The translations under genes and the position numbers were made by a program. From assembly GCA_949443285.1 (NCBI GenBank), contig CASSLW010000001.1, forward strand, positions 137,093 through 201,092: DNA of 64,000 bases, read 5' to 3'. Under the pieces are notes generated by a model. The model had not been told where the DNA came from, did not search any database, and worked only from the letters and a program-made list of their open reading frames with translations. Origin of the DNA: an uncultured Clostridia bacterium (GTDB taxonomy: Bacteria; Bacillota; Clostridia; TANB77; CAG-508). The stretch's first letter is position 1, and each line of letters begins with the position of its first letter. Shown here piece by piece: positions 39,611 through 41,943 of this stretch.

Positions 39611-40711
39611 TCATACCTCCGTTCTATTCTTGCAAGTGATAACAGCCACTATCGTCTCATCATCATTGTGCCTACCATATTTTTTTACAGCTGCCATTAC
39701 AGAAAGTGAAGTATAGTCGTACTTACGCTCAAAATCAGGATGAGTCAGAATAAAATCATCAATTTCATAATCACTGACAGAAACAAAGAACGCTTCGTTA
39801 CGACTAACCATATCAAAAATCTTCTTGTAATTAAAACAAGTATCATTGGATAAGATGGTTTTGGATTCAATAGGTTCATCAATTACATAAAGGTAATCAT
39901 TTACACCTTTTGCATACCCCTGTTCTATCGGATTTCCTCCAGCAAGTTCAACCACTCCAATTTTTGGGATTTTGGATATCACTCCTGCATCATACATTTC
40001 TCTAAACGCTAGATTCTGCGCTAAGATGTCCATCCCACTTCCACACGGAATAAATACTGTATCTGGTGCATAACCTAAGTCACAAACAACCTCATAGGAC
40101 ATAGACCTAAGTCCAAGCATATATGAAATATTTGTGTTTAAGAAACCACAAAATACATCACTACTGTGTTTAAGTGAGTACTGCATAAAATCTTCATAGC
40201 TCTTAATAAAAGTTGAACTATAAAAAACTTCATCAGCATTTGAAATAAGTTCTAAACTAGCCTTTGAAATGCCTTCGTGAATGAAAGCAAGTGATTTAAT
40301 GCCATATTCCTTAGCATAGTTAATAATTGCTATAGCTCCACTGCCACAAGAGACAACAGAAACCTTATCTTTACCATGCATAAGAATTTCGTTCATAATG
40401 TTATCCATACCTCTGTCTTTAAAGCTGCCCGTAGGATTAACAGATTCATCTTTTAAAAAGACATTTGGTAAATATTGAATCAGCGGTGTATTACCAGCCT
40501 TAAATTTAGACACCTTCTTAACTTTTGGAAGGATCACTTTACCATCTTCAGAAATCTTAATTTCAAATTCAGGTAAGTAATCCTTTATACCCCAAAAGTT
40601 AGGAGGAACTAAATCTAATTCAACATCTCTATGTCTGTGATGCATCTGTTCTACTGGATAATCAAATTCCCGTTTACAAATATCACAGATAACCTTCATA
40701 GAGACTATCAC
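39611..40711 (-). CDS. Fold-type II PLP enzyme, threonine-synthase/cysteate-synthase-like, with an N-terminal zinc ribbon
   Basis: N-terminal CDICKREF...HHRH, the TGSFKDRGM PLP-lysine motif, and a glycine-rich GSGAIAI loop. It overlaps the upstream gene by 4 nt (ATGA coupling). Confidence 0.65.
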   Translation of the reverse strand: MIVSMKVICDICKREFDYPVEQMHHRHRDVELDLVPPNFWGIKDYLPEFEIKISEDGKVILPKVKKVSKFKAGNTPLIQYLPNVFLKDESVNPTGSFKDRGMDNIMNEILMHGKDKVSVVSCGSGAIAIINYAKEYGIKSLAFIHEGISKASLELISNADEVFYSSTFIKSYEDFMQYSLKHSSDVFCGFLNTNISYMLGLRSMSYEVVCDLGYAPDTVFIPCGSGMDILAQNLAFREMYDAGVISKIPKIGVVELAGGNPIEQGYAKGVNDYLYVIDEPIESKTILSNDTCFNYKKIFDMVSRNEAFFVSVSDYEIDDFILTHPDFERKYDYTSLSVMAAVKKYGRHNDDETIVAVITCKNRTEV

Positions 40712-41943
40712 TCCTTTCCAAGAATATCATGAATACGCTCCGTAATGCTGCGTGAGTCTTTGATTCTTTTTGTGTCCTGCCACAATTTATAGCAATGCTT
40801 ACAAGGCTTAACCAAATCCAAGTCTCTCACGTCATACGTCATGTTAAACTGTTTAATTGCATCAACAAATTCATTAGTACAATGACCACAATTGCTGGAA
40901 GTCATATGTGGAAAAATCTCATTTCTCTCAGTAAATCCTGCCCCTTGGCTGCCACTTAACACTTCTTCATCGAAATATCCACCAAGTCTAATATCCAATT
41001 TCATAGATTCAGTCTCATCATATATTCCATGAATAATGTCTCTTAGGCTCCAAAGCCATGGTACTCTGTAAAGACCAAGATCATACATATAATTTGCTAA
41101 GGAATTCTCCTGCAGTGATGTGGGTTCAATTGAAACCGCATCGAAATGAAACTTTTTAAAGCAATCTACCGATGTCTTAATAGCATCAATAATAGCTTCG
41201 TTTTCAGTAAGAAAAACAGGTTTGAAATTAACATAGGCCAGTGCCTTCATGCCATACTTATGCAATGTATCAACAGCTTCTGTAAGAATAACTGTATCTT
41301 CAATTGCCTTATGATGACAAAGCTCGCGAACCATAAAATCCGTTGACTCTACGCCAATTCCAACCTCAACTACGCCATCGTATACTTCCTTAATGGCTGC
41401 AAGGATTTCATCCTTTACATATTCAGCTCTGGATTCAATAATAACCTTCTTTACACCCTTGTGTGCATTAAGCGTACCAAAGATATATTTTACAGTTTCT
41501 TCCTGAATCTCTTCGCTGTTTAACAAGCTGCCTAAGTTGTATAAACACACAACTGGAAAATCATTAAGAGAAAAATCTCTTTTTTCACCTTCCAAAAAGC
41601 TGCCATCAAGTACCGAATTCCACTGCTCAACATAGTTCTGATGAGTAATTTTCTCAGTAAGTGGTGCGCCGTTTAAATGTGCACACATTGAGCATCCGCC
41701 GTTTGTCTTGTAATGCTGACATCCATTAGATCTTAAAACAATCATAATTCTGTCAACAGCCTTGCCTTCATAAAAGAATTTATTAATCTCAACTTCAGCA
41801 AGCTTCGTTTTCTCAAACGGTAAATTCGGAGTATTGGCTCTTAAAGCCTTAATTTTTTTCTCTACCAAAGTAGAAGCAGACTCTAAGTCCTGCCGTGCAA
41901 TTTCTGCCTTAACTTCCAAAAAATCGTTACCACTTTTTCCCAT
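40708..41943 (-). CDS. Radical-SAM-superfamily-like Fe-S enzyme with a non-canonical Cx8Cx2C motif and C-terminal CxxC pairs
   Basis: NGCQHYKTNGGCSMCAH, then GIGVESTDFMV (radical SAM G-[IV]-ES-like strand), and C-terminal CGHC...CKHC. 411 aa. Confidence 0.5.
   Translation of the reverse strand: MGKSGNDFLEVKAEIARQDLESASTLVEKKIKALRANTPNLPFEKTKLAEVEINKFFYEGKAVDRIMIVLRSNGCQHYKTNGGCSMCAHLNGAPLTEKITHQNYVEQWNSVLDGSFLEGEKRDFSLNDFPVVCLYNLGSLLNSEEIQEETVKYIFGTLNAHKGVKKVIIESRAEYVKDEILAAIKEVYDGVVEVGIGVESTDFMVRELCHHKAIEDTVILTEAVDTLHKYGMKALAYVNFKPVFLTENEAIIDAIKTSVDCFKKFHFDAVSIEPTSLQENSLANYMYDLGLYRVPWLWSLRDIIHGIYDETESMKLDIRLGGYFDEEVLSGSQGAGFTERNEIFPHMTSSNCGHCTNEFVDAIKQFNMTYDVRDLDLVKPCKHCYKLWQDTKRIKDSRSITERIHDILGKE

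What the first reader, a model, noticed from the sequence alone, without database searches (positions are those of the whole stretch)
40708..41943. Radical-SAM-like enzyme with a non-canonical Cx8Cx2C cluster motif inside the island
The only N-terminal Cys triad is C-QHYKTNGG-C-SM-C (Cx8Cx2C) rather than the usual Cx3Cx2C. A radical-SAM-core-like GIGVESTD strand and two C-terminal CxxC pairs (CGHC, CKHC) suggest an auxiliary cluster or zinc ribbon. Non-canonical spacing is rare and usually marks functionally distinct subfamilies, as in HmdB, QueE and ThiC.
Basis: seen in the sequence. Interest (0 to 1): 0.55.

Follow-up and report, generated by a model that had tools for sequence, protein, structure and literature searches.

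The report
RaSEA-like radical SAM enzyme, ligase-paired
The gene encodes a genuine radical SAM enzyme whose odd cysteine spacing is normal for its already-known family (archaeosine and queuine C-N lyases). Here it is always paired with an adenylating ligase inside an uncharacterised small-molecule gene cluster that is widespread in gut Clostridia.

Summary
ORF 40708-41943 (-) encodes 411 aa whose only N-terminal Cys triad is C75-x8-C84-x2-C87, with GIGVESTD at 195-202 and CGHC/CKHC at 352-355/381-384.

It is a radical SAM enzyme:
- NCBIfam TIGR01210 (RaSEA) matches at E=5e-55, although 187 bits is below the 212 cutoff.
- The AlphaFold model (pLDDT 92) best matches Elp3, HydE and other radical SAM structures.
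- The triad and G197 are invariant in 124 homologues.

The spacing is not special to this protein. The whole family has Cx4-9Cx2C, including archaeal RaSEA (x9) and queuine lyase QueL (x4, PDB 6p78).

The context is new. In 53-54 of 56 related loci a PaaK-like adenylating ligase gene lies directly upstream. This mirrors ArcS-RaSEA in archaea.

In the window the pair sits in a GC-rich, repeat-flanked eight-gene island with threonine-synthase-like, GntC-like aminotransferase, agmatinase-like, SbnH-like decarboxylase, ABC-F and glyoxalase/bleomycin-resistance-like genes.

Best reading: a tailoring enzyme, probably a radical C-N lyase, acting on the ligase's product in the biosynthesis of an unknown arginine-derived compound that may target the ribosome. 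The chemistry is inferred, not shown.

The parts
40708..41943 (-). RaSEA/QueL-family radical SAM enzyme, 411 aa (the finding)
   Evidence: ORF and Shine-Dalgarno sequence. TIGR01210 E=4.8e-55, 187 bits. AF2 pLDDT 92.4, pTM 0.92. Foldseek best matches are Elp3, HydE and other radical SAM enzymes. The family profile hits PDB 6p78 queuine lyase at E=1e-21. dN/dS 0.04-0.08.
41683..41721 (-). Codons for C75-x8-C84-x2-C87, the presumed [4Fe-4S]/SAM cluster ligands
   Evidence: Invariant in 124 homologues. All 58 full-length members of the ligase-associated clade have C.HY....GC[SA][MP]C. The triad aligns with the Cys triad of QueL.
41338..41361 (-). GIGVESTD strand (residues 195-202), a core radical SAM beta-strand motif
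   Evidence: G197 is invariant and E199 is conserved in at least 90% of sequences. The motif lies at the end of predicted strand E191-197. It aligns with GIETFND of QueL and GLESSND of RaSEA.
40792..40890 (-). C-terminal four-Cys site (C352, C355, C381, C384); auxiliary Fe-S cluster or zinc site, metal not determined
   Evidence: All four are conserved in at least 90% of 124 homologues and present in all 58 clade members. pLDDT is 96-98 in this region.
40942..40983 (-). Clade-specific insertion GGYFDEEVLSGSQG (residues 321-334)
   Evidence: Invariant in all 58 ligase-associated clade members at 46-93% identity. Absent from archaeal RaSEA and other relatives. Residues 332-338 have low pLDDT.
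41949..43337 (-). PaaK/F390-synthetase-like adenylate-forming ligase; the likely true start is M10 at 43310
   Evidence: NCBIfam PaaK, DVU_1553, FlxY, BagE and DdaG hits at 1e-32 to 1e-5, all below cutoff. PDB PaaK 4r1l at 1e-21. Lies directly upstream of the rSAM in 53-54 of 56 loci. Shine-Dalgarno sequence before M10.
39611..40711 (-). Threonine-synthase-like PLP enzyme (fold type II); its start overlaps the rSAM stop by 4 nt
   Evidence: PF00291 1.6e-27. Threonine synthase models score 95 bits or less against cutoffs of at least 167. PDB threonine synthases at 4e-18. Follows the rSAM in 36 of 56 loci.
38354..39607 (-). Class I/II PLP aminotransferase-fold enzyme; best model is GntC (arginine-derivative cyclodehydratase)
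   Evidence: PF00155 3e-27. GntC 113 bits, VioD 65 bits, all below cutoff.
37456..38349 (-). Agmatinase-family ureohydrolase; likely start is GTG at 38349, just after the AT stop, with AAGGAGG upstream
   Evidence: PF00491 2.4e-42. Agmatinase TIGR01230 117 bits, below the 174 cutoff. PDB agmatinase 1wog. Start analysis. The GGDHS, DAHSD and DTDFLNP metal motifs are visible in the translation.
35819..37441 (-). ABC-F ATPase (ribosome-associated type) embedded in the operon
   Evidence: NF000355 'ribosomal protection-like ABC-F' scores 455 bits, above the 380 cutoff. A homologue at 38% identity or more is present in 33 of 56 related loci across three cluster architectures.
34488..35702 (-). Fold-III PLP decarboxylase, SbnH/BtrK/LysA-like
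   Evidence: TIGR03099 245 bits and LysA 217 bits, both below cutoff. Best PDB matches are 6knh/6kni at 194 bits, which are SbnH (PMC7139808), then BtrK.
43488..43910 (-). Glyoxalase/bleomycin-resistance-fold protein (candidate self-resistance)
   Evidence: PF00903 1e-5; weak BleO and Fos hits. Conserved next to the cluster in most gut loci.
43444..43472 (-). Promoter-like site TTGACA-17-TATAAT (12/12) about 100 nt upstream of the ligase gene
   Evidence: This is a consensus match only. No Rfam element was found in the leader.
34186..34391 (.). Direct repeat copy 1 (5' end and leader of the intact peroxiredoxin gene 33636-34334); island border
   Evidence: 209 bp at 92% identity to 44189-44397.
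44189..44397 (.). Direct repeat copy 2 (truncated peroxiredoxin 5' fragment, ORF 44151-44339); island border

Best explanation
The gene encodes a catalytically competent radical SAM enzyme of the TIGR01210 family. The characterised members of that family are RaSEA (preQ0-lysine-tRNA to archaeosine) and QueL (queuine to preQ1). C75, C84 and C87 bind the [4Fe-4S] cluster that cleaves SAM. The Cx8Cx2C spacing is the family norm. C352, C355, C381 and C384 form a second metal site that is conserved across the family. The protein belongs to a distinct bacterial clade, recognisable by C.HY....GCSMC and an invariant GGYFDEE.LSGSQG insertion. This clade is not a tRNA-modification enzyme. It works as the second half of a two-gene cassette with the PaaK-like adenylating ligase encoded immediately upstream, in the same order as ArcS-RaSEA. 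Inferred mechanism: the ligase uses ATP to join a carboxylate to a nitrogen of a basic, arginine-, ornithine- or lysine-derived partner. The radical SAM enzyme then abstracts a hydrogen next to that substituted nitrogen and cleaves or rearranges the C-N linkage, as its two characterised relatives do. The remaining enzymes finish a small arginine-derived product: a threonine-synthase-like PLP enzyme, a GntC-like aminotransferase, an agmatinase-like ureohydrolase and an SbnH-like decarboxylase. The embedded ABC-F and the adjacent glyoxalase/Ble-like protein suggest the product is toxic and may act on the ribosome. Shown here: family membership, fold, conserved ligands, cassette synteny, island structure. 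Inferred: substrate, C-N lyase chemistry, product class.
For: Family and fold: TIGR01210 E=4.8e-55. AF2 pLDDT 92.4 with Elp3, HydE, MgmA, HydG, PylB and viperin as best PDB matches. The family profile hits PDB 6p78 queuine lyase at E=1e-21 and Elp3 at 5e-8. Ligands: C75, C84, C87 and G197 are invariant, and the four C-terminal Cys are conserved in at least 90% of sequences. Family-wide spacing is x7-x9 in nearly all of about 130 homologues, including annotated RaSEA. Selection: dN/dS 0.04-0.08. Cassette: the PaaK-like gene is directly upstream in 53-54 of 56 loci at 46-93% identity, across four cluster architectures, usually with less than 60 nt spacing. Control: two annotated archaeal RaSEA genes lie directly downstream of ArcS-type genes (DUF5591/TGT_C2/PUA). 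Chemistry of relatives: RaSEA converts preQ0-Lys to G+ in complex with ArcS (PMC11298593). QueL regenerates preQ1 from queuine (PMC11130926, PMC11570991). Link to arginine: agmatinase-like or ADI/DDAH-like genes occur in 38 of 56 loci. The best model for the aminotransferase is GntC or VioD. A distant family member is fused to a DDAH-like domain. Toxic-product hints: the ABC-F scores above the NF000355 cutoff and recurs in three architectures. One architecture also carries ArgE-like deacylase, GNAT and ATP-grasp genes. Not a defence system or phage gene.
Against: No substrate or product is known, and the C-N lyase chemistry rests on analogy with relatives that share only 22-29% identity. The score is below the RaSEA equivalog cutoff, so function cannot be transferred. 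Environmental versions of the cluster (L018 type) lack an ABC-F in the region seen and sit next to a Zur/ZnuABC zinc-uptake operon. That fits a metallophore or polyamine-like product better than an antibiotic. The NF000355 model also covers housekeeping ABC-F proteins. The island has no exporter, carrier protein or regulator. The metal in the C-terminal Cys4 site was not determined. I could not inspect model coordinates for the SAM-binding geometry.
Confidence: 0.6

Rival explanations
1. The cluster serves primary or nutritional metabolism, not antibiotic synthesis. It would be a route to a polyamine-like or aminocarboxylate metallophore-like compound. For example, the threonine-synthase-like enzyme could add an aminocarboxypropyl unit, followed by decarboxylation and deguanidination. 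The radical SAM enzyme would perform one step on a free amino-acid-derived intermediate. The ABC-F would then be a neighbouring translation factor.
For: The decarboxylase is closest to SbnH, the staphyloferrin B decarboxylase. The threonine synthase/SbnA-type PLP fold is present. Agmatinase plus decarboxylase are classic polyamine enzymes. The 50%-identity cluster in L018, L019 and L060 directly follows Fur-family regulator and ZnuA/ABC/ABC-3 genes, has a deoxyhypusine/homospermidine-synthase-like gene nearby, and has no ABC-F.
Against: In gut Clostridia the cluster is a GC-rich, repeat-flanked insertion found at different genomic sites. The ABC-F sits inside the operon, between two biosynthetic genes, and recurs in three otherwise different architectures. 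A glyoxalase/Ble-like gene travels with the cluster. No metallophore exporter or receptor genes are in the island. The decarboxylase is not of the carboxy(nor)spermidine type (nspC 29 bits).
Confidence: 0.2
2. It is a bacterial orthologue of RaSEA or QueL. It would act on a 7-deazaguanine derivative in tRNA, DNA or a salvaged base, for archaeosine-like modification or queuosine salvage.
For: The best HMM is RaSEA and the best solved relative of the family is queuine lyase. Some distant family members sit next to a B3_4 (tRNA-synthetase-type) domain gene or on ParAB/Cas4-like elements.
Against: The 187 bits are below the 212 equivalog cutoff. No ArcS, TGT, queK or ECF gene is among the neighbours, which are all amino-acid-type enzymes. 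True RaSEA genes sit next to ArcS. The RaSEA segment C[DE]P...RG.HNC is replaced by a clade-specific insertion. QueL is 251 aa with Cx4Cx2C and has no C-terminal domain. Identity to RaSEA is 25-29%.
Confidence: 0.05
3. It is a peptide- or protein-modifying radical SAM enzyme, either a RiPP maturase or a modifier of a translation factor. The ligase would activate a carboxylate on the peptide.
For: Related architectures include SPASM-type and KamA/EpmB-like radical SAM genes and ATP-grasp ligases. ABC-F proteins act on the ribosome.
Against: No precursor-peptide ORF, protease or RiPP recognition element was seen in the island. The intergenic gaps are about 120-150 nt. There is no SPASM or twitch domain. 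The accompanying enzymes are typical of free amino-acid chemistry.
Confidence: 0.05

Closest known systems
RaSEA (archaeosine synthase beta subunit; NCBIfam TIGR01210)
   Same: It is the best HMM match (E=4.8e-55). The two share the Cx7-9Cx2C triad, the NxGS, ESRxE, GxGxES and PPWLW motifs and the C-terminal four-Cys site. Both are encoded immediately downstream of the enzyme that makes their substrate adduct: ArcS in archaea, the PaaK-like ligase here.
   Different: The score is below the equivalog cutoff (187 against 212 bits) and identity is 25-29%. The host is a bacterium, and there is no ArcS or TGT partner. The RaSEA C[DE]P..RG.HNC segment is replaced by an invariant GGYFDEE.LSGSQG insertion. 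The neighbours are amino-acid-metabolising enzymes, not tRNA enzymes.
QueL, queuine lyase (PDB 6p78)
   Same: It is the only solved structure that the family profile hits strongly (E=1e-21). The Cys triad, NSGSF, IE and G.E motifs align. It is a radical enzyme that removes an N-alkyl group (PMC11570991).
   Different: QueL is 251 aa with Cx4Cx2C and has no C-terminal Cys4 domain. Identity is 22%. In C. difficile, QueL works with the Q hydrolase QueK and an ECF-type Q transporter (PMC11570991), none of which is present here.
Elp3 and MnmL/YtqA (TIGR01211/TIGR01212) tRNA-modifying radical SAM enzymes
   Same: They are the best Foldseek PDB matches (Elp3 8ptx_C 6.9e-7) and profile hits (5e-8). 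Close family members of the window protein also hit TIGR01212 and TIGR01211 weakly.
   Different: There is no GNAT/KAT domain, TM-scores are only 0.38-0.47, and there is no tRNA context.
PaaK-family coupling ligases in natural-product pathways (DdaG of dapdiamide, BagE/FevW, AjiA1)
   Same: The partner gene matches these models and structures. One related architecture combines the ligase with an ATP-grasp ligase. From memory, dapdiamide biosynthesis combines DdaG with DdaF in the same way.
   Different: All scores are far below the cutoffs. To my knowledge, none of the known pathways pairs the ligase with a RaSEA-family radical SAM enzyme, and no such paper turned up in the library.

Membership tests
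Radical SAM superfamily | Three-cysteine site for the SAM-binding [4Fe-4S] cluster near the N-terminus of the core | tested here: met
   C75, C84 and C87 are invariant in 124 homologues. They align with the triad of QueL. The spacing is x8, not the canonical x3.
Radical SAM superfamily | Partial or full TIM-barrel radical SAM fold | tested here: met
   The AF2 model has pLDDT 92.4 and alternating beta/alpha elements. The top 47 Foldseek PDB matches, and 49 of the 50 listed, are radical SAM enzymes, all at probability 1.00.
Radical SAM superfamily | Pfam PF04055 at or above the gathering score | tested here: not met
   19.1 bits against a 29.5 cutoff, covering residues 154-250 only. Most family members have the same weak Pfam signal, so this reflects model coverage and is not evidence against membership.
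Radical SAM superfamily | SAM-binding motifs (GGE-like, ribose motif, GxIxGxxE-like strand) | tested here: inconclusive
   Conserved YNxGS (G138), E145, ESR (E170) and GIGVES (G197, E199) lie at predicted strand ends. Model coordinates could not be inspected.
Radical SAM superfamily | Reductive cleavage of SAM to 5'-deoxyadenosine | not testable with these tools
   Needs anaerobic biochemistry.
RaSEA (TIGR01210 equivalog) | HMM score at or above the curated cutoff of 212.15 bits | tested here: not met
   187 bits. Annotated archaeal RaSEA proteins score 335-370 bits.
RaSEA (TIGR01210 equivalog) | Partner ArcS (DUF5591/TGT_C2/PUA) encoded with it; forms a complex | tested here: not met
   The upstream gene is PaaK-like in 53-54 of 56 loci. 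The archaeal controls have ArcS directly upstream. Only the window and the loci were examined, not whole genomes.
RaSEA (TIGR01210 equivalog) | Family Cys pattern: Cx7-9Cx2C plus the C-terminal Cys4 site | tested here: met
RaSEA (TIGR01210 equivalog) | Archaeal host with an archaeosine pathway; acts on preQ0-Lys-tRNA | tested here: not met
   Every hit whose record names an organism is from a bacterial MAG: Clostridia, Bacilli and 'Mycoplasma'. The metagenome loci are unassigned. Substrate activity is not testable here.
QueL (queuine lyase) | Single-domain enzyme of about 250 aa with Cx4Cx2C, working with the Q hydrolase QueK and an ECF-type Q transporter (PMC11570991) | tested here: not met
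   The protein is 411 aa, has x8 spacing and carries an extra C-terminal domain. The neighbours are PLP enzymes, a ureohydrolase, a ligase and an ABC-F.
Elp3 | Radical SAM domain fused to a C-terminal GNAT/KAT domain | tested here: not met
   No acetyltransferase domain was found in Pfam or NCBIfam scans.

The most novel reading that the evidence does not exclude
The PaaK-like ligase and the RaSEA-like enzyme together form a general two-step device for installing nitrogen. The ligase attaches the side-chain nitrogen of lysine, ornithine or arginine to an activated carboxylate. The radical SAM enzyme then cuts the donor's C-N bond, leaving a primary amide or amidine on the product. This is the small-molecule counterpart of ArcS-RaSEA, where lysine is the nitrogen donor. 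The module would build the warhead of an undescribed family of ribosome-targeting antibiotics made by uncultured gut anaerobes, with the embedded ABC-F as self-resistance.
Probability: 0.12. Interest if true: 0.8.

Novelty: new variant of a known kind. Interest (0 to 1): 0.5.

Why it matters
The unusual motif is explained by an existing family, so the motif alone is not a discovery. The analysis does define a bacterial clade of the RaSEA/QueL radical SAM family that has left nucleic-acid modification. This clade is locked to an adenylating ligase in at least four cluster architectures, many of which carry an ABC-F. All the hits whose records name an organism come from uncultured gut Clostridia, Bacilli and 'Mycoplasma' MAGs of humans, mice, rabbits and ruminants. 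If the product is a translation inhibitor, it would be a new antibiotic class from gut anaerobes. If the enzyme is a C-N lyase acting on a small molecule, that would extend the only chemistry known for this family beyond 7-deazaguanines. The cassette also gives a direct handle for mining, through its signature motifs and its synteny.

Tried and rejected
- A single-sequence PDB search found nothing relevant. Only the family profile found QueL and Elp3.
- Pfam alone is sub-threshold.
- I looked for ligase-rSAM fusion proteins among the long family members and found none. The fusions that exist are to TIR, GNAT, DDAH-like and ABC/NMT1 domains.
- No riboswitch or other Rfam element lies in the window or the operon leader. 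No tRNA or tmRNA integration site was found.
- There are no relatives on viral contigs and no PADLOC defence hits for the biosynthetic genes.
- Literature searches for TIGR01210, for RaSEA homologues in gene clusters, and for the gene combination found nothing on this cassette.
- The primary RaSEA and QueL papers are not held, so their chemistry is cited from later open papers.
- I considered a QueE/7-deazapurine link in the related L014-type cluster and rejected it. Its small radical SAM protein is MoaA/maturase-like, not QueE.
- I considered a carboxyspermidine-type decarboxylase and rejected it (nspC 29 bits).
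Full report
**Observation.** The ORF at 40708-41943 (minus strand) encodes 411 aa and has an AGGAGG ribosome-binding site 8 nt upstream of the ATG.
- Cysteines lie at 75, 84, 87, 133, 209, 261, 352, 355, 381 and 384.
- The only N-terminal triad is CQHYKTNGGCSMC (Cx8Cx2C), and there is no CX3CX2C.
- GIGVESTD is at 195-202. CGHC and CKHC are at 352-355 and 381-384.

**Is it a radical SAM enzyme?** Pfam PF04055 matches only weakly, at 19.1 bits against a 29.5 gathering score. NCBIfam TIGR01210, 'archaeosine biosynthesis radical SAM protein RaSEA', matches over residues 59-386 at E=4.8e-55. Its 187 bits are below the equivalog cutoff of 212.

An exhaustive HMMER search of 1.84 billion representatives found 1082 relatives. 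In a 124-sequence alignment with mean column identity 19%, the only invariant columns are C75, C84, C87 and G197. C352, C355, C381, C384, G138, E145, E170, E199 and the P295/W298 motif are conserved in at least 90% of sequences.

The AlphaFold2 model is confident (pLDDT 92.4, pTM 0.92). Its alternating strands and helices are as expected for the radical SAM barrel. The best Foldseek PDB matches are Elp3, HydE, MgmA, HydG, Mmp10, PylB, viperin, LipA and AprD4, all radical SAM enzymes. The gene is under strong purifying selection, with dN/dS 0.04-0.08.

**Is the spacing special?** No. Among about 130 relatives with a recognisable triad, the first gap is 8 residues in 57, 9 in 34 and 7 in 24. None has 3.

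Two proteins score 370 and 335 bits on TIGR01210. One carries the NCBI name RaSEA itself and the other shares its 90% cluster with NCBI-named RaSEA members; both are encoded in Asgard archaeal MAGs. They have CSYARGDQGGCTMC and CKWALSGSGGCSMC.

A profile of the family hits one solved structure strongly: 6p78, 'queuine lyase', at E=1e-21. Its triad is CIWGKCSFC, and it aligns residue for residue with C75/C84/C87, the NxGS motif and the GxE strand. Elp3 follows at 5e-8.

The non-canonical motif is therefore the hallmark of a known family. The C-terminal four-Cys site is also family-wide. Whether it binds a second Fe-S cluster or zinc cannot be decided here.

**What distinguishes this protein?** Identity to the first sequence drops from 49% to 34% or less outside a tight clade. 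All 58 full-length clade members, at 46-93% identity, share two features:
- exactly Cx8Cx2C, in the form C.HY....GC[SA][MP]C;
- an invariant insertion GGYF[DEN]E..LSGSQG (residues 321-334, partly low pLDDT).

The insertion is absent from archaeal RaSEA, which has a C[DE]P...RG.HNC segment there instead.

**Neighbourhood.** In the window the gene is the third of eight co-directional genes:

| Gene | Coordinates | Note |
|---|---|---|
| Glyoxalase/bleomycin-resistance-like | 43488-43910 | |
| PaaK/F390-synthetase-like adenylating ligase | 41949-43337 | likely start 43310 |
| Radical SAM gene | 40708-41943 | the finding |
| Threonine-synthase-like PLP enzyme | 39611-40711 | 4-nt overlap with the rSAM gene |
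| Class I aminotransferase-fold enzyme | 38354-39607 | best model is GntC |
| Agmatinase-family ureohydrolase | 37456-38349 | |
| ABC-F ATPase | 35819-37441 | above the NF000355 cutoff |
| Fold-III PLP decarboxylase | 34488-35702 | closest to SbnH and BtrK |

This table rests. A perfect -35/-10 consensus lies about 100 nt upstream of the ligase gene. No riboswitch was found.

The segment has 35.6% GC against 27.8% elsewhere. It is bracketed by a 209-bp direct repeat, the 5' end of a peroxiredoxin gene. In related MAGs the cluster also has higher GC than its flanks, and it lies in a different genomic context. So it is a mobile island.

**Distribution and synteny.** Genome and metagenome scans gave 17 and 47 loci. 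Those whose records name an organism are uncultured gut Clostridia, Bacilli and 'Mycoplasma' MAGs, with isolate names pointing to mouse, human, rabbit, sheep and deer. Further members, at about 50% identity, came from the metagenome scan, whose contigs are unassigned.

Of 56 loci with room upstream, 53-54 have the PaaK-like gene directly upstream of the radical SAM gene, usually less than 60 nt away. Around this pair, four architectures occur:
- (A) the eight-gene gut type seen here;
- (B) ABC-F, ArgE-like deacylase, GNAT, ligase, rSAM, a variant radical SAM, ATP-grasp, a small radical SAM, HAD and an arginine-deiminase/DDAH-like gene;
- (C) a SPASM radical SAM, one or two ligases, rSAM, GNAT, ABC-F, ATP-grasp and the variant radical SAM;
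- (D) an environmental type with ligase, rSAM, threonine-synthase-like, agmatinase-like, aminotransferase, decarboxylase and an unknown 232-aa protein. In one organism this type directly follows a Fur-family/ZnuABC zinc-uptake operon.

An ABC-F at 38% identity or more to the window's is present in 33 loci. A guanidino-group hydrolase (agmatinase-like or ADI-like) is present in 38.

As a control, two annotated archaeal RaSEA genes lie immediately downstream of ArcS-type genes (DUF5591/TGT_C2/PUA). The order is the same: the adduct-forming enzyme first, then the radical SAM enzyme.

**Mechanism.** The two characterised relatives do the same kind of reaction.
- RaSEA, in complex with ArcS, converts the lysine adduct preQ0-Lys in tRNA to archaeosine. 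The lysine serves as the nitrogen donor (PMC11298593).
- QueL regenerates preQ1 from queuine (PMC11130926, PMC11570991).

Both reactions remove an N-alkyl group. I take this from the structures of substrate and product, and it rests on my own chemical knowledge.

By analogy, and given the fixed ligase-rSAM order, I infer a two-step process. The ligase joins an activated carboxylate to a nitrogen of a basic amino-acid-derived partner. The radical SAM enzyme then abstracts a hydrogen next to that nitrogen and cleaves or rearranges the C-N bond.

The recurrent arginine-type enzymes point to a guanidino or basic amino acid skeleton. So does a family member fused to a DDAH-like domain. Note that preQ0-Lys is formally a homoarginine analogue. 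The SbnH/BtrK-like decarboxylase suggests an N-acylated amino acid intermediate.

These steps are inference. None was tested.

**Product.** The antibiotic reading rests on four things: the embedded ABC-F, the glyoxalase/Ble-like gene, the N-acetylation and deacylation genes in type B, and the island behaviour. Together they favour a toxic product that may target the ribosome.

The main rival is a metallophore- or polyamine-like product. It is supported by the SbnH-like decarboxylase, the threonine synthase/SbnA-type fold and the zinc-uptake neighbourhood of type D, which lacks an ABC-F.

The other rivals are poorly supported:
- A tRNA or queuosine role is unlikely, because the RaSEA cutoff is failed and there are no ArcS, TGT or queK neighbours.
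- A RiPP role is unlikely, because no precursor peptide was seen.
- A defence role is unlikely, because there are no PADLOC or viral hits.

**Novelty and score.** The motif itself is explained by a known family. The ligase-coupled bacterial clade and its clusters appear uncharacterised. The homologues closest to the window protein carry no names, and the few more distant relatives with any source name are called hypothetical protein or 'radical SAM enzyme (TIGR01210 family)'. No paper on the cassette was found in the held library. I rate it a new variant of a known kind, with moderate interest (0.5).

Noticed in passing
window 34186-34391 and 44189-44397; ORFs 33636-34334 (-) and 44151-44339 (-): The island is bracketed by a 209-bp direct repeat at 92% identity, which is the leader and 5' end of a peroxiredoxin gene. 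One copy heads the intact gene and the other is a 62-aa truncated remnant. This suggests insertion by recombination into, or next to, prx.
   Followed up: partly
window 31818-32183 (+) and about 32160-32260: The smpB gene appears frameshifted. The conserved C-terminal tail ([26 protein letters not shown]...) is read in the +1 frame after the ORF's stop. No tmRNA or tRNA gene was found anywhere in the 64-kb window.
   Followed up: partly
window 43444-43472 (-): A perfect TTGACA-17-TATAAT consensus lies about 100 nt upstream of the PaaK-like gene. It is the only 12/12 match in the region. No Rfam element was found in the leader.
   Followed up: partly
window 37456-38556 and 41949-43337 (-): Two mechanical ORF starts are probably too far upstream. 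The agmatinase-like gene most likely starts at GTG 38349, with AAGGAGG upstream, directly after the aminotransferase stop. The ligase most likely starts at M10 (43310), with AAGAGGAAG upstream.
   Followed up: yes
P0224, P0239, P0158, P0149, P0208 (distant family members); loci L023-L025: RaSEA-family radical SAM domains occur fused to TIR domains, to a GNAT domain (an Elp3-like layout), to a DDAH/arginine-deiminase-like domain and to ABC/NMT1 domains. Two unrelated members are followed by a stand-alone B3_4 (PheRS-beta-type) domain gene. One of these lies on a contig that also carries ParA, ParB and Cas4-like PDDEXK nuclease genes. The family is functionally much broader in bacteria than its name suggests.
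   Followed up: partly
L014, L016, L038, L071 (type B); L033, L037, L047, L064 (type C): Other loci, several from gut MAGs or gut metagenomes, carry the same ligase-rSAM pair in quite different clusters. These have extra radical SAM enzymes, an ATP-grasp ligase, GNAT, an ArgE-like deacylase and an ABC-F, which suggests a family of related products.
   Followed up: partly
L018, L019, L060: The 50%-identity version of the cluster directly follows Fur-family regulator, ZnuA, ABC and ABC-3 zinc-uptake genes. It has a deoxyhypusine/homospermidine-synthase-like gene upstream, plus second copies of the aminotransferase and the decarboxylase downstream.
   Followed up: partly
window 30631-31047 and 31240-31680 (+): Two adjacent small ORFs encode proteins with a hydrophobic N-terminus, a long Asn/Thr/Ser/Asp-rich low-complexity middle and a C-terminal hydrophobic helix. 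Their function is unknown.
   Followed up: no
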